From: a virus
Length of the DNA: 11,485 bases
Direction: 5' to 3' (one strand)
Virus record (IMG/VR): IMGVR_UViG_3300044941_000346
Below are positions 131-11,485 of the stretch, piece by piece (the first letter of the stretch is position 1; every line of letters starts with the position of its first letter). Under the pieces are notes generated by a model. It was not told where the DNA came from. It was given only the letters and a program-made list of their open reading frames with translations, and did not search any database. A program made the translations under genes and the position numbers.

Positions 131-2602
131 TCACTTCTTGCCCTTCTCCGGCGTTGGCACGAGCGCCGTCACCTTCTCCAGCGCCGAGCCTTGCAGCAGG
201 CCCGCCAGCACCTCAGAGACAGACTTGCCGCCCAGGATCGCCAGCGGAGCCATCGACTCGGCCACGCGCTCGACCAGCGCGCGGTCGCTAAACGCTTGGA
301 GCGCGGCGATAAGATCTGGGCTGATCGCCGCGGCCTTTTTGACCGTGCCGTCGACATTGGCCGCCAGCTCCTCTAAGCGCTGCGCGAGCTTCTGCGCCTC
401 AAACGCCACCTGCGCGTCCTGCGCGGCCTTCTGGCGCGCGATCTCGGCGTCGTGGATCTTGGTTAGCGCTTCTTGCTCGGCGGTCTTGCCCTCCAGCGTG
501 GCCGCCTGCGCGCTGTTGGTGGCCGCGATCTCGGCCAGCCGCACGGCGAGCCGACGCGCGACCTCTTCCTCCCGAAGCGCCAGCTCCTTCTGCGTCGTCT
601 GCGCCAGGGTTTCCATGATCTGGCGCTTCACATCTTCTTGCTGCGATACAAACGCTAAGCGGCGCTGCTCGCTTGCTAGATCCAATGTTTGCTGTACCAC
701 TGAGTGCTGTGCCTGTGTGAGCAACTCCTCAATCTTTGCATCGCCTAGCCGAACTCCTAGCACCTCCACGTCATAAATGCGCATGCCGTTCTCTTCGAAC
801 GTGCGCCCCGGACGCTTGCCACCCGCGTCAGCCTTGCCCAATACCGCGTCGCGGATCACGGCGATGGCGTCACTATAAAAGCTCTGGATACCATGTTGTT
901 TGATAGCGTTGCGCAGTAGAGAGCGCATGTGATCTGTCAAGAACTTGACAAAATTCTCGACATTAAACCACAGGTTGGGGTCGCCCTCGAAGTTGACGCG
1001 GTAGCTCAAGTGGACGTGCACCTGGCACAGATCGCGCGTCTCGGCGTCGACCAGATCGGAGATCTTGTTGTGCAGCGCGCGCAGGTAGACCGTGCGCAGC
1101 AGGTTGGTGTCGGTCTTAGGCGTGCCGGTGGACAGCTCCATCGTCTCCAACGTCTCATCATACTCCAAAAGGCAAGCGTTTGGCCCTACGATCACCTTGC
1201 GCTCGCCCGACTTGCTCACGACCTTGACCGCGTAGCCTGTCCAGACGCCGATCGTGACTGCGCCCTCGTATTTTGTATCGAGCGTGATGGTGCGCGGCGG
1301 ACTAAACTGCTGCTTCCTGTTAAAGTCGTCGCCCGCGAAACCCTCGGCGGCTTCCGAGCGGCGCTGCTGTTTGGCCGCGAGTTCCAAGATGTTTGCCTGG
1401 GCCAGATCGCCGTCCGTGATGACGGCGCCGCCGGGCGCGCCGCGCTGGCTCATCATCTGTTGCAGCCGCGCGTTGTACTCCTGCGCCTCGCGATTGCCCG
1501 GATACCACAGCGCGACCTGCTTGTCCGTCAGCACGCGGCGCACGATGACCTCGCGGCGAGGATCGGGCAGGAACATTGCGGGGCCACGCACCAGGCGGAT
1601 CTGGCCGGTCTGACGGTCCAGGCAATAGCGCCCCTCGCCCGCAGGGATCGCCACCGCGTAGTGGATCTCGCGGTTGCCATACTTGATGAGTGCGTGCTCG
1701 GGTCGAGGGAAGTAGATCATCTGCTCTTTGCCTGTGATGAAGAGCTCTTGGCCGACCTTGAACTCGGCGCCGCCCTCGGTGTAGGGCGCGATGACCTTGA
1801 CATAGATGCCCGATAGCTCGTTGAGCTCGATGGCCTTGAACTTGCGCAGCCCGTCGCGCTCCACGAACGTCTCGGTCGGCTCGGGGAACACGACAGCGGG
1901 TCCCTGAATAAAACGCTTGTTGCCGTCCTCATCCAAGAGGATACAGTACTCTAGGCGCTCAAGCGTGACAGCATCGCGGATGTAGCTGCCTGCGGCGTCG
2001 GGCACGACCTCGATGCCCGTGGGCGGGATGTAGAAGCTGACCTCGGTGCCCTTGATGATGAGCTGCTGGCCGAGCGTAAAGTCGGGGGTCTGCTGGGCTG
2101 CGGGCTGCTGTGCGCCGTCATCGGCGCTGGTCTGGAGCTTGACCACCGCCGCGCTCCAGTGCTTGCGCGCGCTCTCCTCATCGTAGACGCGCACCGTGAG
2201 GTACTGGTTGGAGCGCAGTGTGTGGCCCTTGACCACCTTGACCATCTGGCCCGGCCACAGCGCGAAGGACTGCGGGCCGGGGATGTTGACCTTGTGGCCG
2301 ACGTGGAGCTGCATCAGGTTGTTGACCGTGCCGGTCTTGGGCTGCTCGCCGTCCTTGGCCGGGTTCTTGAGCACCAGATACCAGCCCTCGGGCGCGGTGG
2401 CGAAGACCCGGATCGCTGGCTCCAACATGCAGCGCTCAAAGCGCTTGCTCTTCTCATCGAAGAACACGGGCTGATCCGTGTTGGCCAGGCTCGTCTTGTA
2501 TGGGCCGACATAGACGTTGATGTTGCCCTTGGTCTGATCCGAGATAAACGCATACTCATTGGGGGCCAGGACCAGATCGCGCTCACGGGAGTTATCCGCC
2601 AT
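131..2602 (-). CDS. mvp: Major vault protein (MVP) homologue, 823 aa; shell protein of vault ribonucleoprotein particles
   Basis: The translation aligns with eukaryotic MVP along its whole length. The N-terminus MADNSRERDLVLAPNEYAFISDQTKGNINVYVGPYKT parallels human MVP [35 protein letters not shown]. It is followed by serial ~55-aa MVP-repeat modules, a shoulder (SPFH-like) region and a long Ala/Glu/Gln-rich cap-helix coiled coil (EQRRLAFVSQQEDVKRQIMETLAQ...EAQKLAQRLEELAANV). The tail is cap-ring-like (ISPDLIAALQAFSDRALVERVAESMAPLAILGG; compare human [33 protein letters not shown]). The track start at 2611 is a GTG; the ATG at 2602..2600 gives MADNS... and is preceded by AAGGTG (2614..2609) with a 6-nt spacer. 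Confidence 0.9.
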   Translation of the reverse strand: MADNSRERDLVLAPNEYAFISDQTKGNINVYVGPYKTSLANTDQPVFFDEKSKRFERCMLEPAIRVFATAPEGWYLVLKNPAKDGEQPKTGTVNNLMQLHVGHKVNIPGPQSFALWPGQMVKVVKGHTLRSNQYLTVRVYDEESARKHWSAAVVKLQTSADDGAQQPAAQQTPDFTLGQQLIIKGTEVSFYIPPTGIEVVPDAAGSYIRDAVTLERLEYCILLDEDGNKRFIQGPAVVFPEPTETFVERDGLRKFKAIELNELSGIYVKVIAPYTEGGAEFKVGQELFITGKEQMIYFPRPEHALIKYGNREIHYAVAIPAGEGRYCLDRQTGQIRLVRGPAMFLPDPRREVIVRRVLTDKQVALWYPGNREAQEYNARLQQMMSQRGAPGGAVITDGDLAQANILELAAKQQRRSEAAEGFAGDDFNRKQQFSPPRTITLDTKYEGAVTIGVWTGYAVKVVSKSGERKVIVGPNACLLEYDETLETMELSTGTPKTDTNLLRTVYLRALHNKISDLVDAETRDLCQVHVHLSYRVNFEGDPNLWFNVENFVKFLTDHMRSLLRNAIKQHGIQSFYSDAIAVIRDAVLGKADAGGKRPGRTFEENGMRIYDVEVLGVRLGDAKIEELLTQAQHSVVQQTLDLASEQRRLAFVSQQEDVKRQIMETLAQTTQKELALREEEVARRLAVRLAEIAATNSAQAATLEGKTAEQEALTKIHDAEIARQKAAQDAQVAFEAQKLAQRLEELAANVDGTVKKAAAISPDLIAALQAFSDRALVERVAESMAPLAILGGKSVSEVLAGLLQGSALEKVTALVPTPEKGKK

Positions 2603-2608
2603 CACACA

Positions 2609-2614
2609 CACCTT
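2609..2614 (-). promoter_or_regulatory. Shine-Dalgarno (AAGGTG) for the MVP gene, 6 nt upstream of the ATG at 2602
   Basis: Minus-strand read: caAAGGTGtgtgtgATGgcggataac. A purine-rich SD at canonical spacing supports a bacterial-type initiation and the ATG 2602 start. Confidence 0.45.
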
Positions 2615-2829: not shown

Positions 2830-3705
2830 TCACCACCTGACCGGGATGCGCTCCGGCACGCCATCGCCAAACGTCTCGTAGAGGTTCAAGCGATCCATAT
2901 GCACATAACCGATGTGGCAGCCGCAGGTCTCGTTGGTGCAGGGCGAGCGCACGAGCGTTGTGTCGAAGCCCTCGTTGTAGATGTTGCCGATCGGCGTTTT
3001 GATGAAGTGACAGCGCCGCGCAGTGCCATCGCCGTCAACCGTAAAAGCGCTGTAGCCCGCGCGGCATGAGGCGCCAAGCGAGGCGTGGCGCGTGGCGTTG
3101 TAGCGAAAGAGCGGATCGATCTGCTCAAACTTTAGCAGGTCAAGCTCTTGGTAATAGCCAGGGTCGCGCTTGTAGGCGTTGATCCACATGTAGACGCTTG
3201 GATCCAGCTCGGCGCGCAGCGCATTTAGCTCGTCGAGCGCGTCCTTGAACCCCACAGCGCCCACCGAGTAGCGCACGCCGCGCGTGTCCAGCTCGCGGCA
3301 CTTGGCCACAAACCCCGCGCGCGTGATCTGGGTCGGGTGGTACGTTGTCCACAGCGCCAGCACGTTGCGGTTGGCGCGCTCGGTCCAGCCAAGCTTGCAT
3401 GTCAGGTTGGTTTGGATTGCCGCACGCCACACATGGGGCATGTGGCTTAACTCAATCAGGGCCTCCTGATAATGTCGCCTTATCAATCCCTCGCCCCAGG
3501 GCGTAAACAATAATCCGATCTGCTTATCTGTGCGGAGGCGTATCCACTCGACAAAGCGCTCTAGCTTTAGTCGATCATCCTCTAGCTCCGCGCGTGTATT
3601 GCGGGTCTTGGCAAATGGGCAGTAGTCGCAAGCATAGTTGCAGCTCGACAGCGGACCGCGATACAAGATCACCCATCTGTCTGCAGCCTCGTGTGGCGTC
3701 TTCAT
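2830..3705 (-). CDS. Radical SAM enzyme (Cx3Cx2C = CNYACDYC) with a C-terminal Cys cluster; resembles, from memory, the STM4011-type rSAM family
   Basis: The ORF has the canonical rSAM motif ...WVILYRGPLSSCNYACDYCPFAK near the N-terminus and a C-terminal cysteine cluster (CRAGY...RRCHF...SPCTNETCGCHIGYVH). The start is placed at ATG 3705..3703 (MKTPHEAADRW...), which forms an ATGA 4-bp overlap with the upstream gene stop (3704..3702). The track's longer ORF from 3756 would overlap the upstream gene by 55 bp. Confidence 0.8.
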   Translation of the reverse strand: MKTPHEAADRWVILYRGPLSSCNYACDYCPFAKTRNTRAELEDDRLKLERFVEWIRLRTDKQIGLLFTPWGEGLIRRHYQEALIELSHMPHVWRAAIQTNLTCKLGWTERANRNVLALWTTYHPTQITRAGFVAKCRELDTRGVRYSVGAVGFKDALDELNALRAELDPSVYMWINAYKRDPGYYQELDLLKFEQIDPLFRYNATRHASLGASCRAGYSAFTVDGDGTARRCHFIKTPIGNIYNEGFDTTLVRSPCTNETCGCHIGYVHMDRLNLYETFGDGVPERIPVRW

Positions 3706-5099
3706 GTGATCGCAAAGCCCCGCATCATTGCCTCCACCTTGGGCGAGTTCATCCACGGGCCGATCACGTCCGAGGCGTCGATCCCACGCTGCGTCAGCGC
3801 GAGCGTCCCGGCCTCACGGCGCACCAGCCCCAGTGCCTCCAGCTCCGCCACCTGTGGCAGCGCCTCGTCGAGCGACACCCCGAACCTGCGCGCAAACAGG
3901 GCGAGGTCGAGCGCGTGTGCGCCGCCATCGGCCAAGAGCGACACCACCACGAAGCGGCGCTGCTGCTCGGCCTCGTCCAGTAGAAAGCCGTAGTGGACCG
4001 CACCAAAGAACTCAGCGGGGCGCTGCACCCAGTCCTCGATGATGTGTACCACGCTGCGTCGTCCCACCGCCCACTCCGTCGAGTAGTGCAGCCCGCGCGT
4101 GTAGGATCGCGCGCCTACGCCCAGGCCCACCATCCCATCCGTCGCTGGGTGGTACGCCGGCCCGCGCGTGCGCGGTGTATGATCGGCACGCACGAACATC
4201 CGCATCGATCGCTGATTGTAGCCATGGGATAGAAGATAATCGCGGCCCTGTTGATACAGATCATAGCGCCAGTCATCCCACGCCTTGTCCGAGTTTCCTA
4301 GTCCCGTCAGCGGCCTCACATACAGAGGATACAAGAAGATCTCCTCGGAGCCATACGCCACCGCCGCTTCAAGCGAGCGCTCCCAGCTCTGTGCTGTCTG
4401 GCCCTCGATCCCGTAGATGAGGTCGATGTTGCGCTCCTCAAAGCTGCCGCTCGCCAAGAGTTCAAGCGCGCGCTCCAGCACCTTGTGCCGCTGCGGCCTG
4501 CGCACCGCCTTGGTCTCCGACTCCAAGAAGCTTTGCACCCCCATCGACACCCGCGTCACGTTAAATCTCTTTAATATGTCGATCTTCGATGGTGTCAGCG
4601 TCTCCGGGCTGACCTCACACGAGAGCGGGATCTGCGGCGCGCTGCCGCCCAGCGGCGCCCCCATGATCCCGGCCGCGACCCGCTCAAACAGCGCCTCAAG
4701 CGACGCGTCATCCAGCTGCGTCGGCGTCCCGCCCCCCACCGCCATCCGCGCAAACCCCACCTCGCGCTCGCCCAGCGCGCGCCGCGTCTGCTCGGCCTGC
4801 CGCGTCAGCGCCCCCAAGAAACCCCTGTGCAGCGCATCGCCTGGCTTGGCCATCGCGAACAGGTTACAGAACCCGCAGCGCATCTCGCAGAACGGCACAT
4901 GAATATACAGGTAGAGCGCGCGCGTGTCCTCCTCGCGCCAGACCTCCTCCAGCTGCAGTGCTGGCTCGATCGGGCGATAGGCCGTCTTATGCGGATAAGC
5001 GTAGGCATAAGATTGAAACGGTGAACCGGTCAGCCGCATGGCGAGCGTCCCGGTCGGCATCGCCGTGTGCGGTGTCGTCGTGATCTGTGTCGTCGTCAT
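3702..5099 (-). CDS. HemN/HemW-like radical SAM enzyme (oxygen-independent coproporphyrinogen-oxidase family fold); STM4012-like by recollection
   Basis: YLYIHVPFCEMRCGFCNLF is the HemN-family signature (YxHxPFC + Cx3Cx2C). The length (~465 aa) and the C-terminal winged-helix-like tail are typical of HemN-like proteins. The start is placed at ATG 5099..5097 (MTTTQITTTPH...), giving an ATGA overlap with the upstream hydrolase stop (5098..5096). The 43-codon N-terminal extension in the track (to 5228) overlaps the hydrolase gene and is rejected. Confidence 0.8.
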   Translation of the reverse strand: MTTTQITTTPHTAMPTGTLAMRLTGSPFQSYAYAYPHKTAYRPIEPALQLEEVWREEDTRALYLYIHVPFCEMRCGFCNLFAMAKPGDALHRGFLGALTRQAEQTRRALGEREVGFARMAVGGGTPTQLDDASLEALFERVAAGIMGAPLGGSAPQIPLSCEVSPETLTPSKIDILKRFNVTRVSMGVQSFLESETKAVRRPQRHKVLERALELLASGSFEERNIDLIYGIEGQTAQSWERSLEAAVAYGSEEIFLYPLYVRPLTGLGNSDKAWDDWRYDLYQQGRDYLLSHGYNQRSMRMFVRADHTPRTRGPAYHPATDGMVGLGVGARSYTRGLHYSTEWAVGRRSVVHIIEDWVQRPAEFFGAVHYGFLLDEAEQQRRFVVVSLLADGGAHALDLALFARRFGVSLDEALPQVAELEALGLVRREAGTLALTQRGIDASDVIGPWMNSPKVEAMMRGFAIT

Positions 5100-5923
5100 C
5101 TCTGCTCCATGCTGGTCTTCGCAGCTGAATAGAAGGCGTGCGCGTAGGGCACGTCCCACACCGCTTGATGCGCCAGCCGATGCCCGTAGAACCCATCCTC
5201 CCCATACGCTGTCCCGTGGTCCCCACATACGATACAGAACGTCTCATCCCGCAGCGATTCTAGTAGTAATGGCAGCTGGCTGTCTACATAGCGCAGCGCC
5301 GCTGCGTGCGTCTCGATCGTGTCCTCCGCCGCCCCATCTATATAAAAGCGATTCGGCTGGTGCAGCGCTGAGACATTGATAAACAGGAACGTGCGCTGCT
5401 CAGGTGCAAGCGCTCGTAGCCGCTCACCAGCTAGCTCAAACTGGTTTTTTGTAGAGTCTCGATCCGTCACGCCGAGCTTGGGCGCCCAGTGGCTCTCGTG
5501 AAATAAATTTGGTAGGACAGACCCCAGCGCCGTCTGCTTATTAAAGAAGCCCACGCCGCCGATGCAGATCGTGTGGTAGCCGCGCGCCGCCAGCCCCGTC
5601 ACAATGTCCGCCTCCTGCATCACACACGTCGTCTGTCCAGTCGTCTCCGATCCGCCAAAACTCGCCGCGAACAGCCTCACATGCCGCCCCGGTCTCGCCG
5701 GCGTCGGCAGAAACCCCGCGAAGAACGCTTGGTGTGCCGCATACGTAAAGCTCCCCGGCGTGTGCCGCCGCTCCCAGCCTCCCGGCCCGATCAGCCGCGC
5801 CAAGTGCGGCGTCTCGCCCGACCGCATCAGCCTGTCCGCCACATCAAAGCGCAGCGTATCCAGCGTCATAAACAGGATGTCGTGCGCCCCCACCACCGCG
5901 TTCATGTCCACATCATCGCTCAT
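5096..5923 (-). CDS. Alkaline-phosphatase-superfamily metallohydrolase (sulfatase/NPP/phosphonoacetate-hydrolase-like); STM4013/SEN3800-like by recollection
   Basis: The N-terminal metal-ligand block ILFMTLDTLRFD and the C-terminal block CIVCGDHGTAYGEDGFYGH (DHG...GxH) are hallmarks of the alkaline phosphatase / type I phosphodiesterase fold. The start is ambiguous. Candidates are GTG 5929 (17-bp overlap), ATG 5923 (11-bp overlap) and ATG 5905 (7-nt gap after the upstream TGA). None has a clean SD. Confidence 0.75.
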   Translation of the reverse strand: MSDDVDMNAVVGAHDILFMTLDTLRFDVADRLMRSGETPHLARLIGPGGWERRHTPGSFTYAAHQAFFAGFLPTPARPGRHVRLFAASFGGSETTGQTTCVMQEADIVTGLAARGYHTICIGGVGFFNKQTALGSVLPNLFHESHWAPKLGVTDRDSTKNQFELAGERLRALAPEQRTFLFINVSALHQPNRFYIDGAAEDTIETHAAALRYVDSQLPLLLESLRDETFCIVCGDHGTAYGEDGFYGHRLAHQAVWDVPYAHAFYSAAKTSMEQR

Positions 5924-7736
5924 CTTCACGCATCAACCACGCCTCAAGCTCTGTCACCTCGCCAAGCTCCACCTCGGGCGCTGGCTGCGCCACATGCCAC
6001 GTCCTGCCGCGCACTACCCACGCCGTCCTCAGCCCCACACACCGCGCCCCCAGCAGATCGTGCACCGGCGTATCACCGACCATCACCGCCGCGCGCGGAT
6101 CTTCCGCGCAGCCCGTCGCCGACAGCGCGGCCTCGAAGATCGCCGCGTCTGGTTTTGTAGCGCCGATCTCGTCTGAGATAAAGATCGCATCAGGATCAAA
6201 ATGTCGCAGGAGGTCAGCCCGCGCCAGCTTGTCGCGCTGGCTCGCGCTGCCACCGTTGCTCAACAGCGCCAACTTGTAACGTTTGCTCAATCGCTCAAGC
6301 ATCGCTTGAATCGCAGGCTCTGGCACAAGCTCCGCCGCGATGCGGCGCGGTAGCTCGGCCCACACGGCCCGCCACTCGCCCGCCTCCCTGCCGAGCAGCC
6401 CACACAGCGCCTCACACAACACTCGCCGATCCCCATGCCCATGCGCGTCCAGCGCAAACACCCGCGCCAGCGCCTCGTCATCACAGCCCGTCCAGCGCCG
6501 CACCGCCGCGCAGAACGCCGCGTCGCGGTCGATCAACGTGTTGTCGAGATCAAACAGCACCGCCCGTATCTTTGGCCACGCCTCCAGCCTGCCCCAGCCC
6601 GCAAAGCCCCGCACCTCCGCCGTATAGCTGTCCTCCCCACGATCATACACATTGGGCAGCAGATCCCCAAACGCATTGACCTCGATGATACGCGGCGCAT
6701 CCAGCGCATCCGCCGGGAACAACACGTCCGCCCCCAGATAATACGCGCCCGGAAACGCCTGCGCTGCCTGCCTACACAATACCTCAAGCGCGCTCCACCC
6801 CACATCTCCCACCAGCGCCCGCACCTGATCCAGCTCCCCCCGCGCGTTCCCCAGATGAAGGTTTGTCATGGGATGCTCTGAGGCCCGCACCACCACCTGA
6901 CGCGCCTCACCGCCGATCACCACCACCCGCAGATCAAAGTTTTTGTCCTGACCATCATGTCGGATCATCGCCTTTGATGACCACTTCTCCACCACCGCAC
7001 CCTCCGCCAATAAATAATTTAGCAGTAGCGCGATCTGTCGAATGTCGTGATAACGTCGCGGTCGAAGTGAATTGTAAATGGAGAACCTGCCGTCGCTGTC
7101 CTCCACCAGATGGGCCGTGGTGGTCAACATCGCGCGCGGGCCGCTGACGCGCAGAGCCGCAACGCCCGACGCAGACGAGCTGCCGCGCAGCTTCACAAAC
7201 ACCCGATCCCAGCCCGCCTCGTCCATCCGCGCCCGCAGCGCCTCCCACGATCCCACGCCCTCCAGCGATGGCATCCTCGGCACACCATGCGCGTCCAATC
7301 TGCGGTGCGTCGCCAGCTTGTCAAACATCACCGCGATCTCGTCCGGGCGGCTCATGATGCGCCCCGGCGCACCTTCAAGTATCACTTGAAGGTCGCGCAA
7401 GACCGCCTGCCAGCCCGCGCGCAGCTGCCCCGGCGCCAAAAGCCTGCCGTGCTCAAGCGGCGCACAGAGCGCCTCCTGCGCGGTAAGCGTCGGCTCGTCC
7501 AGCTCCTCCGCACCGCGCGCCAGCAGCCTGCGCGTCACGCGCGCATCCTCGCCCGGCGACTCCAGCCGCAGGATCGTGTCGTCGTCCAGCAGATCTGGCA
7601 GCACCACGCGCCCCTCCAACACGTCGAGCCACGCCACAAAGCGCGCCGCGCTGTGGCCGCTGCGCATCAGCGCGTCCTGCACGTACGCTGTGCGGCGATG
7701 CCCCGCGTTGCCCACCACCACCCACCGCCTCGTCAT
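5913..7736 (-). CDS. Two-domain fusion: N-terminal ATP-grasp ligase (RimK/glutathione-synthetase-like) + C-terminal HAD-superfamily phosphatase
   Basis: ATP-grasp: DLRVVVIGGEARQVVVRASEHPMTNLHLGNARGE matches the RimK core ([32 protein letters not shown]). The motif ...RIIEVNAFGD is also present. HAD: motif I FDLDNTL (aa ~398), S/T motif LLSNGG, Lys in GATKPD, and the motif IV block MVGDTPVHDL. The start is placed at ATG 7736..7734 (MTRRWVVVGN...), giving an ATGA overlap with the upstream LRR gene stop (7735..7733). Confidence 0.8.
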   Translation of the reverse strand: MTRRWVVVGNAGHRRTAYVQDALMRSGHSAARFVAWLDVLEGRVVLPDLLDDDTILRLESPGEDARVTRRLLARGAEELDEPTLTAQEALCAPLEHGRLLAPGQLRAGWQAVLRDLQVILEGAPGRIMSRPDEIAVMFDKLATHRRLDAHGVPRMPSLEGVGSWEALRARMDEAGWDRVFVKLRGSSSASGVAALRVSGPRAMLTTTAHLVEDSDGRFSIYNSLRPRRYHDIRQIALLLNYLLAEGAVVEKWSSKAMIRHDGQDKNFDLRVVVIGGEARQVVVRASEHPMTNLHLGNARGELDQVRALVGDVGWSALEVLCRQAAQAFPGAYYLGADVLFPADALDAPRIIEVNAFGDLLPNVYDRGEDSYTAEVRGFAGWGRLEAWPKIRAVLFDLDNTLIDRDAAFCAAVRRWTGCDDEALARVFALDAHGHGDRRVLCEALCGLLGREAGEWRAVWAELPRRIAAELVPEPAIQAMLERLSKRYKLALLSNGGSASQRDKLARADLLRHFDPDAIFISDEIGATKPDAAIFEAALSATGCAEDPRAAVMVGDTPVHDLLGARCVGLRTAWVVRGRTWHVAQPAPEVELGEVTELEAWLMREDER

Positions 7737-8992
7737 GCCATCCACCAGGGGTCATCCGGGTCGAGCGCCGCTGCGCACCAGCGCGCCCCCACCTCATCAA
7801 GCTCCGCGCGCACCGCCGCGCTGGCCGCAATCGCAGCCAGCGTCACCTCATTAAAGCCGTTCCCATTTAACACCACCCGCGCGCTCGGATGCAGCCGCGG
7901 CGACGTGATCAGCGCCAGCGCCCCCGCGTCCGTGAGCTGCGTCGCCGACAGATTTAGTAGGCGCAACTGCCCCACCCACGGCAGCGCCAGCAGCCGCTCT
8001 ACGGCTTGATCCGTCAACGGGTTGTCGCTCAGATCCAGCGCGGTCAGCCCCCAGCTGTGCCCTTCTGTGAGTGGCTCGAACAGCGTGTCCAGCGTCGCAT
8101 CGTCGATCCTGCACTCGCCCAGCTCCAGCGTCTTCAAGCGACCCAGCACCGCAGGCGCCTCGCGCAGCACATGCGCCCCTCCGTGCAAGAATAGATTGCC
8201 GCGCAGCGACAGGTGCCGCAGCGCCTCCCAGCCCGACAACGCGAAGATGTGCATACACGGCAGCCCGTGGTGCCCCTCACAGTGCTCCAGCCAGAGCGAC
8301 TCCAGCACGGGCGCCGCGTCCGCAACCTCGACCAGCGCGTCCAACCCCGCGCTGCCGCCCACGCCGAGCGGGTTGCGCGACAGATCCAGGTGCCGCAGCC
8401 CCCGCACCAGCGGTGCACGCGCCAGCCGCACCAGCGGCAGCGCCATCGGCTGCGCGTTATTGCTCGTTGCACGTGTCACGTTCGCCAGGCTCAACCGCTC
8501 AAGCGGCGGCTTATCTGGCTCATCTTGCAGCCAGGCGTCCAGCGCGCCCAACACATCATTGTCCGACAGGTCAAGCGCGCGGAGCCGGTTGTGCTCGGCC
8601 AGCCGCTCCATCAGCGGCCCCACCATATGCTCGTGCAGGCTCGTCCCAGCCAGATCGAGCTGCGTGATGTGCCCCAGCGCCGGATGCTCGATCAGGCGCT
8701 GCATCTTGTCCCGATCCGTCAGCTGCACATGCACTCGCAGCCGCCTGGCGAGCGCCAGCGCGGGCAGCTTGTCGCCCGATAGCACCCGCGCAATCCAGCG
8801 CCGAGGCGCCACCCGCCAGCTATCCTCCCAGCCGCGCAGCTGCGCCTCACAATACGGCAGCGCCTGCTCGGCCAACGATCCATCGTCTGGCCACCGCTCC
8901 AGGAGCGCGCACAGCGCCCCCCACGTCTGCGGCTCAGGCGCGCGCTGCAGTAGGCTGCGCAGCTCCCCGAACAACACCTCGCGCTCGCTCAA
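7733..8992 (-). CDS. RNI-type leucine-rich-repeat protein, paralogue A (~419 aa), with a ~75-aa Trp-rich N-terminal domain shared by the downstream paralogues
   Basis: There are multiple 25-29-aa repeats of the form LxxLxLSxNxLxDxgaxxL (LDLSDNDVLGALDAWL, LDLSRNPLGVGGSAGLDAL, LDLSDNPLTDQAVERLLAL, LNLSATQLTDAGALAL). The N-terminal domain is LFGELRSLLQRAPEPQTWGALCALLERW...ALPYCEAQLRGWEDSWRVAPRRWIARVLSG. The likely start is TTG 8992..8990, preceded by AGGTGG (9003..8998) with a 5-nt spacer, giving a TTGA 4-bp overlap with the upstream stop. The alternative is GTG 9001 (the track start). Confidence 0.75.
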   Translation of the reverse strand: MSEREVLFGELRSLLQRAPEPQTWGALCALLERWPDDGSLAEQALPYCEAQLRGWEDSWRVAPRRWIARVLSGDKLPALALARRLRVHVQLTDRDKMQRLIEHPALGHITQLDLAGTSLHEHMVGPLMERLAEHNRLRALDLSDNDVLGALDAWLQDEPDKPPLERLSLANVTRATSNNAQPMALPLVRLARAPLVRGLRHLDLSRNPLGVGGSAGLDALVEVADAAPVLESLWLEHCEGHHGLPCMHIFALSGWEALRHLSLRGNLFLHGGAHVLREAPAVLGRLKTLELGECRIDDATLDTLFEPLTEGHSWGLTALDLSDNPLTDQAVERLLALPWVGQLRLLNLSATQLTDAGALALITSPRLHPSARVVLNGNGFNEVTLAAIAASAAVRAELDEVGARWCAAALDPDDPWWMA

Positions 8993-9855
8993 GGCTCCCA
9001 CCTCTCGTCATCCACCCACACCGCAAGCTCTGGTCGCTGCGCATACAGATGCTCAAGCGCCGCGCGCACGGAGCGCTCACGCACCTCCAGCCCCGTCAGC
9101 CTGACCTCGCGCAGCGTCGGCAGCTGCTTGGGCGCCGCGCTCAACCACTCCAGGCGCACCCGGTTCCCACTTATATTTAAAGTCTCAATGCTCTCCATGC
9201 GATCCGTGAGCATCGCGTGAATCGATAGATCATTGTCGCTGATGTTAAGGTGTTTGATATGACTCATTGCGCCAGCTTTATTTATATGGACAGCATAGAC
9301 TGTGCTCAGCCCACAGCGTCGCAGGCTTATCCGAGCCAGCTTTGTCGCATCTGCGGGGAGCATCGCCCAGACACCTCGACCACCAAGTGGATTGTGATCA
9401 AGTGTCAAGGATTCGAGAACAGACCAGCTCAGATGACGCCCCAAGATCGCTCCTGCTTCCTCGCCTAAATCACACTCCGACAACATCACATGTGTGAGCG
9501 GCCCCATATCGGGGTTGCTTAATACTACCAAGAGTCCGTGATCGCCGAGCGGGCCGCGGTGGTGGAGGTGGCGGGCTAGCCGCCACAGCCTGCACCGCTC
9601 GCCGCGCAGCGTGGCCCGCATCCAAGCCGCCGGGTTGACGCGCATGGCGTCAGGCCAGGCTTTGAGGTGCTCCTCGGCGTAGGGGATGAGCATCTCCCAC
9701 AGGTAGTCATCATGCGCTGCGGGTGCCAGCACCGCGCAGATCTCGGCCCAGACAAGCGGGCAGGGCGGGCGGTGCAGCAGGCTGCGCAGCTCGGAGAGGC
9801 GCCACTCGGGCGAATCACGATGGGTTTTGGGTGAGGGAGACGGCATCAAGCTCAC
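8989..9855 (-). CDS. RNI-type leucine-rich-repeat protein, paralogue B (288 aa), same N-terminal domain family
   Basis: N-terminal domain: WRLSELRSLLHRPPCPLVWAEICAVL...LIPYAEEHLKAWPDAMRVNPAAWMRATLRGE. It aligns with paralogue A through the conserved ELRSLL, ALPY/LIPY, W(P/E)D..RV.P and W(I/M) positions. LRRs: LTLDHNPLGGRGVWAML, LNISDNDLSIHAML, LNISGNRVRLEWL. The GTG start at 9855..9853 forms a GTGA overlap with the upstream stop. ATG 9846 is the alternative. Confidence 0.75.
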   Translation of the reverse strand: MSLMPSPSPKTHRDSPEWRLSELRSLLHRPPCPLVWAEICAVLAPAAHDDYLWEMLIPYAEEHLKAWPDAMRVNPAAWMRATLRGERCRLWRLARHLHHRGPLGDHGLLVVLSNPDMGPLTHVMLSECDLGEEAGAILGRHLSWSVLESLTLDHNPLGGRGVWAMLPADATKLARISLRRCGLSTVYAVHINKAGAMSHIKHLNISDNDLSIHAMLTDRMESIETLNISGNRVRLEWLSAAPKQLPTLREVRLTGLEVRERSVRAALEHLYAQRPELAVWVDDERWEP

Positions 9856-10573
9856 AGGTCGTCGTCGTAGGGCTCCTCAAGCTCGATCATAGCCTCGTTG
9901 GCGCTGCTCAACAACTCCAGCCGCGCGTTGCAGCCGACGGGGTTGGGCGACAGGCTCAACTGCTCCATCCGTTTGAGCCACACGCACGCCGCGAGCGCAT
10001 AGGCGCCGCGCGAGTTTATGGGGTTGCGCTCAAGCTCGATCGCGGTCTGCGCCGCAAGCCGTAGGCCCGTCACCAGCAGCTCCAGCCCCTCGTCATAGAG
10101 CGCGCAGCTGTGGAGCGACAGGTTGGTCAAGGCGCGCTCGACGCCGCGCGGCGCCTATGCGGTTGTGGCTCAGGTTGGGCGAGACAAGCCGCGTCAGGTG
10201 CGGGCACTGGACGCTGGCGTGCGGATGCCCTTGTCGCTGACCGAGGACCTGTAGCGCATGACGCGCACCAGCACAAGGGACGCCCCCGGATGGCGTGCTT
10301 GATCCAATCCGGGGGCGCGACGCGCAGCGCGTCAGGCCATGTGTCCAGCGCACGCTTGAGGTAGGGCAGGGCCCTCTCGGTGAACAGATCTGGTCGCTCT
10401 GGTTGCGCCTGGTAGGCGTCGATCGCGCGTCCCAGCGCATTCCAGCGCGCCGCGTCGGGCTGGCCGTGCGCAACGCCGCAGAATTCCCCATACCAAGTTG
10501 TCTTGATTGACCTTCTTTTTGCGCTACAAAATGCGTGTTCGGTGTGGTCGGTAAAAGGCTGAGCCAAAGGCAA
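9852..10573 (-). pseudogene. Third LRR paralogue, apparently disrupted by two frameshifts (N-domain in one frame, first LRRs in a second, C-terminal LRRs + acidic tail in a third)
   Basis: Frame 1 (10127..10573) encodes the N-domain homologue WYGEFCGVAHGQPDAARWNALGRAIDAY...ALPYLKRALDTWPDALRVAPPDWIKHAIRGRPLCW. Frame 2 (within 10093..10491) continues with ARHALQVLG...CPHLTRLVSPNLSHNRIGAA, which matches paralogue B LARHLHHRGPLG...GPLTHVMLSECDLGEEAGA. Frame 3 (9852..10130) encodes LRRs and ends EEPYDDDL. This implies single-nt indels near ~10300 and ~10130. Confidence 0.5.
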
Positions 10574-10639
10574 TGAGGCAGAATGAAGGAAGCTTGGTAT
10601 TATTTGTTATCTTATCTCCTCGTTTTATCGTGGTCTTTG

Positions 10640-10825
10640 TTATGTGTTAAAGTGACGGTTTAAGCGTGGCCGCTCACTCCACCAAGTCGTAGAACGTGCC
10701 AAACTCGATCTCCAGAGCGCCTTCCACGCCTCGGCGCTGGACGGCTGCTCCAGCGCGCTGCGCAGCTCACCGAACCGCGCGCTGTGATCACTCACCGACT
10801 TCGACATACCAGTAGTCATCGTCAT
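10640..10825 (-). pseudogene. Orphan fragment of the LRR-paralogue N-terminal domain (first ~25 aa conserved, then degenerates and stops)
   Basis: The 61-aa ORF contains ARFGELRSALEQPSSAEAWKALW, closely matching LFGELRSLLQRAPEPQTWGALCALLERW of paralogue A. The remainder has no similarity and runs into the AT-rich spacer. It overlaps the 3' end of the upstream LRR gene in another frame. Confidence 0.3.
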
Positions 10826-11485
10826 CGTCGGCGCGGCGCTGCCCGCCGTTACGCACCGTCACGCCCGTCGCGCGGAGCTGGTCGATCAGCTCCTCATCGC
10901 CGATGAAGTTATTGGTGATATCAATCGACTTGAGCTTGCCGATCTTTGGATTCCTCGCTAGCGCACCGGCTCCTGTATTCGACATGATCCCCTTCGACAG
11001 ATCCAGCTCCTCCAGGAAGTCCAGCACAGGCGCATCAAACAGCGCCTCCGCCAGCTCGTCCGCCAGCTCGCTGTTCACCAGCCCCAGCCGCTTGAGCTTG
11101 GGGAACGGATACCGCATCTCCGGATACGCTGTCCCCACCAGCAGCGGCTTCACATCCTCCACCGTCACGTCCGCCCCGTACTCGCTGCTCCCCGTCCAGA
11201 TCTCCAGATGCTGCAGGTTCGGCAGCTTCGCGCTCACGATCTGGCGCACCGTGTGGCCGCTCACGCCGCCTGTCTCCACGATCAGCGTCTCCAGCGTCGG
11301 GTGGCTCAGGCCCGTGAACCCCAGCCCGTTGCCGCCGCGCGCCTTGAAGTGCTTGAGCTTGGGGAAGGCGTTGATCACCGCGCCCAGATCAAACTGCTCG
11401 ATCCACGACACCTCGCTCTCCTCATAGGAGATGTCGCCCACAAACAGCGCCTCCAAGGAGGTGAGCTTGGGCGCCGCCGCCCGCA
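10788..11485 (-). CDS. RNI-type LRR protein, 5'-partial (start lies beyond the window end), with acidic/aromatic C-terminal tail DDDDDYWYVEVGE
   Basis: The open frame runs off the window at 11485; M at 11456 is only the first in-window Met. Repeats LETLIVETGGVSGHTVRQI, LQHLEIW, LKRLGLVNSELADELAEAL, LEELDLSKGIMSNTGAGALA, LKSIDITNNFIGDEELIDQL are RNI-like LRRs. The composition (more K/I/F) differs from paralogues A/B, so it may be a distinct LRR subtype. Confidence 0.75.
   Translation of the reverse strand, partial: RAAAPKLTSLEALFVGDISYEESEVSWIEQFDLGAVINAFPKLKHFKARGGNGLGFTGLSHPTLETLIVETGGVSGHTVRQIVSAKLPNLQHLEIWTGSSEYGADVTVEDVKPLLVGTAYPEMRYPFPKLKRLGLVNSELADELAEALFDAPVLDFLEELDLSKGIMSNTGAGALARNPKIGKLKSIDITNNFIGDEELIDQLRATGVTVRNGGQRRADDDDDYWYVEVGE

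What the first reader, a model, noticed from the sequence alone, without database searches (positions are those of the whole stretch)
7733..11485. Tandem array of RNI-type LRR proteins sharing a novel ~75-aa Trp-rich N-terminal domain
Paralogues A, B, the frameshifted member and an orphan fragment all begin with a shared domain. Conserved positions include (F/L)GELRSLL, A(L)PY, W(P/E)D(A/S)xRV(A/N)P, W(I/M)xxxL(R/S)G. I do not recognise this domain. It is followed by variable numbers of ribonuclease-inhibitor-like LRRs. Bacterial LRR arrays linked by translational coupling to metabolic enzymes are unusual. Candidate roles are substrate or target recognition modules, protein-protein adaptors to the MVP shell, or sensors of an immunity-type system (LRR sensor + rSAM effector logic as in viperin-like defence).
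Basis: seen in the sequence. Interest (0 to 1): 0.7.

Follow-up and report, generated by a model that had tools for sequence, protein, structure and literature searches.

The report
LRR gene array with uncurated cap domain
Four tandem genes (two intact, two decayed) encode leucine-rich-repeat proteins that share a real but uncatalogued helical N-terminal domain. The gene array sits inside a conserved enzyme operon of unknown function, in the position where that operon normally carries its own repeat protein.

Summary
Window 7733-10825 (minus strand) carries four copies of an ~85-aa N-terminal domain: A (422 aa), B (288 aa), C (three frameshifts) and a ~26-aa stub.

A strict-motif genome scan found the family only in three Myxococcota/Bradymonadales MAGs. 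There it is often in tandem, always beside unrelated genes, and never beside STM4011-15 or MVP.

In the window the array is wedged between STM4015 and STM4014 of a canonical STM4011-STM4015 operon (two radical SAM enzymes, an ATP-grasp, a hydrolase). Genes C through STM4011 are chained by overlapping stop and start codons. Fragments from two diverged relatives show the same placement. Deinococcus and Streptomyces clusters carry two STM4015 genes in that slot.

My best reading is that these are co-opted extra protein-binding subunits of the enzyme module. That role is inferred, not shown. I found no support for a defence-sensor or a vault-adaptor role, and no diversification focused on the LRR concave surface.

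The parts
10788..11485 (-). STM4015-family LRR protein. Its 5' end is cut off by the end of the window. It ends in ...DDDDDYWYVEVGE.
   Evidence: NCBIfam NF038076, E 9.6e-68, matching model positions 69-290 of 290. The reading frame runs to the window edge. The C-terminal motif ending in Glu is shared by 8 of 8 family members inspected.
10712..10797 (-). Orphan stub of a further N-domain gene (...SARFGELRSALEQPSSAEAWKAL...). A GTG overlaps the STM4015 stop codon. Only about 26 residues of the domain survive.
   Evidence: Profile hit at 10712-10789, E 7e-6, profile positions 3-28. Sequence and junction.
10480..10660 (.). AT-rich stretch (33-50% G+C against about 65-70% around it) between the stub and pseudogene C. 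Probably a deletion or rearrangement scar.
   Evidence: Composition profile. No promoter-like or terminator-like site. No Rfam match. No plasmid match. Three Logan contigs all begin at 10518.
9852..10573 (-). Pseudogene C. It has an N-domain (10262-10495) with a degraded first motif (YGEFCG) and about 4-5 LRRs. Frame changes lie at about 10277-10287, 10202-10205 and 10144-10146. It ends in ...EEPYDDDL.
   Evidence: Three-frame reading. Profile hit, E 5.4e-18. Identical in three independent assemblies. An orthologue with one frameshift at the homologous Pro codon is in L029.
8989..9855 (-). Paralogue B, 288 aa. N-domain at 9550-9813, followed by about 6 RNI-type LRRs. Its GTG start overlaps the stop of C (GTGA).
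   Evidence: ORF. LRR_6 and LRR_1 above their cut-offs. Profile hit, E 6.5e-28. Orthologue in L023, 42% identical. Junction.
7733..9001 (-). Paralogue A, 422 aa. N-domain at 8720-8983, then 11 LRR strands, a long C-terminal helix (residues 385-413) and a disordered tail.
7736..7771 (-). C-terminal tail of A (AAALDPDDPWWMA). It is predicted disordered and is conserved as DP[ND]DPWW[IM]A in the orthologues.
   Evidence: pLDDT below 50 for residues 411-422. Alignment A6.
5913..7745 (-). STM4014 ATP-grasp fused to a HAD phosphatase. This is the first enzyme gene after the array, and its probable ATG overlaps the stop of A (ATGA).
   Evidence: NF038074, E 1.9e-99, residues 8-379. HAD_2, E 2.2e-17, residues 396-577. 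Junction.

Best explanation
The region is a birth-and-death array of cytoplasmic RNI-type LRR proteins. They belong to a large, uncurated family centred on Myxococcota.

The family is defined by an ~85-aa five-helix N-terminal domain with the consensus FGELRSLL..pPS..W..LC.LL...LPY...L..WPDxLRvAP.RW....G...P.L.LAR. I infer from the structure model that this domain is the N-terminal cap of the LRR solenoid. Its last helix leads directly into the first LRR strand. The conserved LRVAP segment appears to add an edge strand next to it.

In this lineage the array occupies the LRR-protein slot of an STM4011-STM4015 operon, between STM4015 and the ATP-grasp STM4014. Overlapping stop and start codons join it to the enzyme genes.

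I infer that A and B are made together with the enzymes and act as extra protein-binding subunits, either specificity adaptors or regulators. This parallels whatever STM4015 does in the canonical system. In this reading the variable central repeats carry the binding specificity. The conserved N-domain and C-terminal part, including A's DPDDPWW tail, would carry the constant contacts.

C and the stub are decayed copies.

What is shown: the family, the fold class, the operon position, the conserved synteny and the decay. What is inferred: the cap role and the functional coupling to the enzymes.
For: - Family is real: a profile of the four window copies found 1,276 clusters at E<=1e-3 and 341 at E<=1e-10. 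The domain starts within the first 40 residues in 144 of 161 occurrences. Where it is internal it mostly follows another LRR block. Apart from one DUF72 fusion, the only Pfam families found alongside it are LRR families.
- Cap role: the domain model has pLDDT 95.8 with five helices. In the full model of A (pTM 0.86), helix 80-84 is followed at once by strand 87-89, with a bridge residue at position 64 in WRVAP.
- Operon position: the order is STM4015, stub, C, B, A, STM4014-HAD, STM4013, STM4012, STM4011. Overlapping stop and start codons link C through STM4011, mostly as 4-nt GTGA/TTGA/ATGA overlaps.
- Canonical order: in Methylobacterium, Salmonella and Paenibacillus, STM4015 lies directly before STM4014. 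Deinococcus and Streptomyces carry two STM4015 genes there, so this slot tolerates several LRR paralogues.
- Synteny kept in diverged relatives: L023 has a B orthologue, a 408-aa gene, a 413-aa gene and then STM4014. Its STM4014 is 63% identical to the window's, A 49% and B 42%. In L029 a gene end that looks like STM4015 is followed directly by the C orthologue.
- Constraint pattern (orthologue comparisons): dN/dS is 0.25-0.27 in the N-domain, 0.37-0.39 in the C-terminal third and 0.5-0.8 in the centre.
Against: - Outside this lineage the family shows no link to STM401x. None of 21 loci from three MAGs has such genes within 10 kb. Three more loci sit among housekeeping genes. The array could therefore be a passenger.
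- Two of the four copies are decayed, so selection on the array is not strong.
- A, B and C lack the conserved STM4015 C-terminal ...[GST]E motif. They score far below the STM4015 cut-off (44.5 against 275 bits). They are not simple substitutes for STM4015.
- No binding partner was identified. Concave-surface positions are not preferentially variable.
- The function of the STM4011-15 system is itself unknown. The papers found for these locus names did not appear to address their function.
Confidence: 0.5

Rival explanations
1. Passenger array. A fast-expanding Myxococcota LRR family that duplicates in tandem happened to insert between two operon genes. It is carried along and co-expressed, but has no role in the enzyme system.
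For: - Seven of 21 genome loci hold 2-4 same-strand tandem copies beside unrelated genes.
- Neighbours are heterogeneous: mevalonate decarboxylase, TSP3/VWA proteins, proline dehydrogenase, PdxJ and peptidase S9.
- None is linked to STM401x.
- Half of the window's copies are decayed.
Against: - The position is kept in lineages whose STM4014 is only 63% identical. The L029 lineage also keeps it.
- The overlapping stop and start codons are maintained.
- The N-domain and C-terminal parts of A are under purifying selection, with dN/dS 0.25-0.39.
- The same slot holds duplicated LRR genes in other phyla.
Confidence: 0.25
2. Inhibitor or immunity proteins. Like ribonuclease inhibitor, these RNI-type LRR proteins would bind and neutralise a nuclease or toxin. 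The array would then be a poly-immunity locus.
For: - In two MAGs an Endonuclease_1 gene lies directly upstream of two tandem N-domain LRR genes (L002 and L007).
- The array has features typical of immunity islands: tandem paralogues, pseudogenes, a stub and a mosaic history. In the L023 paralogue pair dS is 0.14, 0.96 and 0.26 across the three segments.
- A bioRxiv paper describes an LRR protein resembling ribonuclease inhibitors inside a poly-immunity cluster (10.64898/2026.07.13.738213).
Against: - The window has no recognisable toxin or nuclease gene.
- Most other loci have no nuclease neighbour.
- The L002 and L007 pairing may simply be shared synteny between related genomes.
Confidence: 0.1
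3. The LRR proteins are sensors of an anti-phage system whose radical SAM enzymes are the effectors, or they are adaptors that load the enzymes into an MVP (vault-like) shell.
For: - An MVP homologue lies downstream on the same strand: MVP_shoulder E 1.3e-27 and Vault_3.
- STM4011 has a very weak viperin-like match (E 0.003-0.05).
- STM4012 has a partial match to the defence candidate PDC-M51A (E 4.7e-9).
- The STM401x cluster has a patchy, often plasmid-borne distribution.
Against: - The LRR proteins, STM4013, STM4014 and MVP have no PADLOC hit.
- MVP is separated from STM4011 by about 220 nt. It is absent from all five other clusters inspected.
- N-domain LRR genes elsewhere never sit next to MVP.
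- There is no diversification focused on the binding surface.
Confidence: 0.08

Closest known systems
TIGR02996 'repeat-companion' domain proteins (N-terminal domain followed by RNI-like LRRs)
   Same: The architecture matches: a conserved N-terminal domain of about 80-100 aa directly followed by RNI-type LRRs, in multi-copy families. One such protein (P0168, named as TIGR02996 family by JGI) turned up among the LRR hits. From my own knowledge, not tested here, the family was first defined in Gemmata/Planctomycetes.
   Different: There is no sequence relationship. None of 50 N-domains hit TIGR02996 at E<=1. hhalign against the P0168 N-terminus gave probability 0.2%. The motifs differ: RLVYADWLEE in TIGR02996 against FGELRSLL...WPDxLRVAP here.
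STM4015 family protein (NCBIfam NF038076), the native LRR component of the STM4011-4015 cluster
   Same: The LRR subtype is the same: 22 of 23 N-domain LRR proteins hit the model below its cut-off. Both are encoded directly upstream of STM4014 and both have an acidic, aromatic C-terminal tail. A residues 257-421 align collinearly with STM4015 at 27% identity, E 2e-5.
   Different: A scores 44.5 bits against a cut-off of 275, and B and C do not hit. The STM4015 N-terminus is unrelated to the N-domain (hhalign probability 0.6%). STM4015 proteins end in ...[GST]E in 8 of 8 cases, while A, B and C end in A, P and L.
Eukaryotic RNI-type LRR domains (ribonuclease inhibitor, RanGAP1, NLRP LRRs, FBXL proteins)

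Membership tests
RNI-type (LRR_6-like) leucine-rich repeat proteins | Repeats of about 27-29 residues, each a beta strand plus an alpha helix, matching the LRR_6 / LRR_1 profiles | tested here: met
   LRR_6 scored 32.2 bits for A and 26.0 for B, against a cut-off of 23.4. LRR_1 scored 41.2 and 25.2 against 20.6. The model of A shows 11 strand-helix units.
RNI-type (LRR_6-like) leucine-rich repeat proteins | Horseshoe fold superposable on solved RNI-type LRR domains | tested here: met
STM4015 family (NF038076) | Whole-protein score above the curated cut-off of 275 bits | tested here: not met
   A scored 44.5 bits. B and C gave no hit. Sub-threshold hits are generic to this LRR subtype, seen in 22 of 23 family members.
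STM4015 family (NF038076) | Conserved C-terminal motif: an acidic run, an aromatic residue, then ...[VA][VL][GST]E at the carboxyl end. I derived this feature here from 8 sequences; it is not a published definition. | tested here: not met
   8 of 8 STM4015 proteins end in E. A ends in ...DPDDPWWMA, B in ...VDDERWEP and C in ...EEPYDDDL.
TIGR02996 repeat-companion domain | Match to the TIGR02996 profile | tested here: not met
   No hit for any of 50 N-domains at E<=1. hhalign probability was 0.2% against a TIGR02996-type N-terminus.
F-box/LRR proteins | An F-box motif or fold before the LRRs | tested here: not met
Known anti-phage defence systems (PADLOC-DB 2.0) | Component proteins match the models of a defence system | tested here: not met
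   No hit for A, B, STM4015, STM4014, STM4013 or MVP. The two radical SAM proteins gave only weak, partial hits.
LRR immunity proteins of polymorphic toxin systems | Encoded next to a toxin or nuclease gene that the protein neutralises | tested here: inconclusive
   The window has no toxin gene. An Endonuclease_1 gene lies directly upstream of family members in L002 and L007 only. Neutralisation cannot be tested with these tools.

The most novel reading that the evidence does not exclude
The LRR proteins of this operon may be protein scaffolds or carriers rather than sensors.

Every STM4015 protein inspected ends in an acidic, aromatic tail that finishes in Glu. The gene that follows it, STM4014, is an ATP-grasp with weak RimK/LysX-like similarity. 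From my own knowledge, RimK extends the C-terminal Glu of ribosomal protein S6, and LysX loads the C-terminal Glu of the carrier protein LysW.

STM4014 could likewise ligate a building block onto the tail of the LRR protein. The two radical SAM enzymes and the two hydrolases would then tailor and release it. That would be a protein-tethered small-molecule pathway.

The inserted N-domain LRR proteins have their own conserved disordered tails (DP[ND]DPWW[IM]A). They would be alternative scaffolds, or competitors or regulators at the same docking site.
Probability: 0.1. Interest if true: 0.8.

Novelty: new variant of a known kind. Interest (0 to 1): 0.4.

Why it matters
The N-terminal domain deserves a curated family entry. 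It covers more than a thousand protein clusters, it gives a very confident five-helix model, and every source that names its members calls them hypothetical proteins or mislabels them from the repeats. For example, JGI names A a 'RanGAP'.

The window also shows that the LRR slot of the uncharacterised STM4011-4015 operon is evolutionarily flexible. It holds one STM4015 gene in some bacteria, two in others, and here STM4015 plus members of an unrelated LRR family. This points to the LRR protein as the exchangeable, specificity-bearing part of that system, and it gives experimenters a concrete handle on it.

On its own the finding does not reveal a new mechanism.

Tried and rejected
**Searches that gave nothing**
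- A word-indexed protein search with A's N-domain alone found nothing, not even A itself. With the 50-sequence profile it returned only seven short proteins. That tool is weak for short domains, and the exhaustive profile search was needed.
- Exact look-ups of A and STM4013 with my chosen start codons failed. They worked with the gene caller's start codons.
- Two metagenome scans, one with A and one with an alignment of A orthologues, found no relative.
- The viral-contig scan and the plasmid tblastn for the N-domain were negative.
- The afdb50 fold library was not available.
- Rfam, promoter/terminator and plasmid DNA searches of the AT-rich stretch gave nothing.

**Ideas rejected**
- A single weak Pfam hit to DUF982 (E 0.0017, below its cut-off, 1 of 50 members) is noise.
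- I considered that A is a chimera of an N-domain protein and STM4015, because of the HMM hit and the collinear BLASTP alignment. I dropped this because 22 of 23 family members hit the same model.
- I tested for diversification at concave LRR positions and found none. Segment dN/dS never exceeds 1, and dS in the centre is near saturation, so this test has little power.
- Literature searches for the STM401x names, for a bacterial MVP plus radical SAM link, and for TIGR02996 gave nothing useful.


Full report
**What the window holds**

All genes are on the minus strand. In order of transcription they are:

| Coordinates | Gene |
|---|---|
| 10788 to the window end | STM4015-family LRR protein, cut by the window edge |
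| inside ORF 10640-10825 | short stub of an N-domain gene |
| 10480-10660 | AT-rich stretch |
| about 9852-10573 | pseudogene C |
| 8989-9855 | B, 288 aa |
| 7733-9001 | A, 422 aa |
| 5913-7745 | STM4014 ATP-grasp fused to a HAD phosphatase |
| 5096-5929 | STM4013 hydrolase |
| 3702-5228 | STM4012, HemN-like radical SAM |
| 2830-3756 | STM4011 radical SAM |
| 131-2611 | major-vault-protein homologue, after a gap of about 220 nt |

The four enzyme genes score far above their NCBIfam cut-offs.

**Check of the observation**

A family profile hits the six-frame translation of the window at four places:

- 8720-8983, E 4e-32.
- 9550-9813, E 6.5e-28.
- 10262-10495, E 5.4e-18.
- 10712-10789, E 7e-6, first 26 profile positions only.

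C can be read through only by changing frame three times, at about 10277-10287, 10202-10205 and 10144-10146. Three Logan assemblies from separate sequencing runs are 99.9-100% identical to the window across this stretch, so the frameshifts are real features of the sequenced population. At the DNA level the copies are only 60-72% alike, so the duplications are old.

**Is the N-domain known?**

A profile of the four copies was searched against 1.84 billion representative proteins. It found 1,276 at E<=1e-3 and 341 at E<=1e-10. Among the best 150 proteins the domain starts within the first 40 residues in 144 of 161 occurrences. Eleven proteins carry it twice.

The consensus is FGELRSLL..pPS..W..LC.LL...LPY...L..WPDxLRvAP.RW....G...P.L.LAR. 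Three Trp and one Tyr are invariant in a 50-sequence alignment.

None of the searches placed it in a known family:

- No Pfam or NCBIfam family was matched by more than 2 of 50 members.
- Short proteins that consist of little more than the domain carry no precomputed Pfam hit.
- The PDB sequence search gave no significant hit (best E 0.033).
- Every source that names these proteins calls them hypothetical, except that JGI labels A itself a RanGAP-like protein.

**Structure**

The full model of A has pLDDT 88 and pTM 0.86. It shows:

- the last short helix of the domain (residues 80-84) followed at once by the first LRR strand (87-89);
- eleven strand-helix repeats;
- a long C-terminal helix (385-413);
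- a disordered tail (411-422).

The isolated-domain model also shows a small bridge between the conserved LRVAP segment and the start of the repeat region.

I read the domain as an N-terminal cap of an RNI-type LRR solenoid. This is an inference from predicted models and from the fact that the domain always accompanies LRRs.

**Where else the family occurs**

A genome scan with the strict peptide FGELRSLL[QH] returned 21 loci, all from three MAGs. They are labelled uncultured Myxococcales, Myxococcota bacterium XB_MAG542 and uncultured Bradymonadales. This is a lower bound on the family's distribution.

- Seven of the 21 loci hold two to four copies in tandem on one strand.
- None has STM4011-15 or MVP homologues within the fetched flanks.
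- Neighbours are varied.
- Three further members on long contigs sit among housekeeping genes.
- The one suggestive pairing is an Endonuclease_1 gene directly upstream of two tandem family members, in both L002 and L007.

**The operon context**

In Methylobacterium, Salmonella and Paenibacillus plasmids the cluster reads STM4015, STM4014, STM4013, STM4012, STM4011. Deinococcus and Streptomyces carry two STM4015 genes in tandem before STM4014. None of these five clusters has MVP.

In the window the N-domain array sits exactly between STM4015 and STM4014. The stop and start codons overlap at every junction from C through STM4011:

| Junction | Overlap |
|---|---|
| C / B | GTGA |
| B / A | TTGA |
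| A / STM4014 | ATGA |
| STM4014 / STM4013 | overlapping stop and start |
| STM4013 / STM4012 | ATGA |
| STM4012 / STM4011 | ATGA |

**Relatives keep the arrangement**

L023 is a JGI metagenome contig. It carries a B orthologue (292 aa), two A-like genes (408 and 413 aa) and then STM4014. Against the window, its STM4014 is 63% identical, A 49% and B 42%.

The end of the gene upstream of B in L023 (...IIEVDSEYDID) matches the end of the window's C (...MIELEEPYDDDL).

L029 shows a gene end that looks like STM4015 (...DIYFESFHDLME), followed after 8 nt by a C orthologue.

**How the proteins evolve**

Between A and its orthologues the N-domain is about 70% identical and the C-terminal third 50-60%. 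Repeats 4-6 are only 14-35% identical.

Nei-Gojobori estimates for the orthologue comparisons give dN/dS of 0.25-0.27 in the N-domain, 0.37-0.39 in the C-terminal third and 0.5-0.8 in the centre, where dS is near saturation.

In the two L023 paralogues dS itself differs by segment: 0.14, 0.96 and 0.26. The first 60 codons and codons 346-375 are 96-100% identical at the nucleotide level. This is a mosaic, most simply explained by gene conversion of the ends or exchange of the central repeats.

Substitutions are not concentrated at the concave beta-strand positions. Identity there is 36%, the same as at convex and helical positions, with Fisher p = 1. With only three sequences its power is low.

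**Relation to STM4015**

A hits the STM4015 model at E 9.5e-12. A also aligns collinearly with the window's STM4015 up to the tail. However, 22 of 23 family members hit the same model below its cut-off, so this reflects a shared LRR subtype.

The STM4015 N-terminus and the TIGR02996 N-terminus show no relationship to the N-domain.

All eight STM4015 proteins inspected end in an acidic run, an aromatic residue and ...[GST]E. A, B and C do not.

**Interpretation**

The structural and evolutionary description is well supported. The functional reading is inferred from three things: the position in the operon, the chained reading frames, and synteny kept across clearly diverged lineages. It holds that A and B are extra protein-binding subunits working with the STM401x enzymes in the slot normally used by STM4015.

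The main rival is that the array is a passenger from a family that expands everywhere in these genomes. The immunity-protein reading rests on one nuclease adjacency and on the general look of the array.

The defence-sensor and vault-adaptor readings have no positive support.

**Verdict**

- The domain is real, widespread and uncurated, and is probably an LRR cap.
- The array is a lineage-specific variant of a known but uncharacterised operon.
- Interest is moderate.

Noticed in passing
window 10788-10830; L027 6900-7826; L028 7059-7907; L030 3050-4916; L031 3763-4605; L032 2860-4783: All eight STM4015-family proteins inspected end in an acidic run, an aromatic residue and ...[GST]E at the carboxyl end (for example WRYVALGE, RYVAVGE, YWYVEVGE). 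The next gene is always the ATP-grasp STM4014, which has weak RimK/LysX-like similarity. This suggests the tail may be a substrate of the ligase.
   Followed up: partly
L030 3050-4916 (Deinococcus taeanensis plasmid); L032 2860-4783 (Streptomyces fungicidicus plasmid): Two tandem STM4015 genes precede STM4014 in these clusters, so duplication of the LRR component recurs in other phyla.
   Followed up: partly
window 131-2611: A major-vault-protein homologue (MVP_shoulder, Vault_3) lies about 220 nt downstream of STM4011 on the same strand. It is absent from the five other STM4011-15 clusters inspected.
   Followed up: partly
window 5913-7745: STM4014 is fused to a HAD phosphatase with similarity to YjjG-type pyrimidine nucleotidases. 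Salmonella has a separate Cof-type HAD gene after STM4011, and Deinococcus has a HAD gene nearby.
   Followed up: no
window about 10202-10205; L029 about 484-490: The second frameshift of C and the only frameshift of its orthologue in L029 both fall in the C-run of the homologous Pro codon (A-S-S-A|P-H-L against A-Q-S-P|W-L). In L029 at least 143 codons of well-formed LRRs follow in the new frame. This could be a shared old lesion, a slippage hot spot or a bypassed frameshift.
   Followed up: partly
window 10480-10660 and 10518: An AT-rich stretch (33-50% G+C) separates the stub from C. All three independent Logan contigs begin exactly at 10518, which suggests a branch point or a coverage drop in the population at that position.
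   Followed up: partly
L023 1012-2238 and 2306-3547: The two tandem A-like paralogues are 96-100% identical in DNA over the first 60 codons and over codons 346-375, but only 33-60% identical in the centre. dS is 0.14, 0.96 and 0.26 across the three segments. This indicates gene conversion or exchange of the central repeats.
   Followed up: yes
L002 1727-2761 then 2781 and 4208; L007 7817-8818 then 8829 and 9986: In two Myxococcota MAGs an Endonuclease_1 (PF04231) gene lies directly upstream of two tandem N-domain LRR genes. This may be a nuclease-inhibitor pairing.
   Followed up: partly
L027 5522-6847; L030 9009-10306; L032 1174-2638: A DUF6745 gene and a small hypothetical gene recur beside STM4011-15 clusters in Methylobacterium, Deinococcus and Streptomyces. 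They are not in the window.
   Followed up: no
L024 361-2521: The contig repeats the same 408-aa gene with a period of 1,294 nt. This is probably an assembly loop through the near-identical ends of the paralogues rather than a true duplicate.
   Followed up: no
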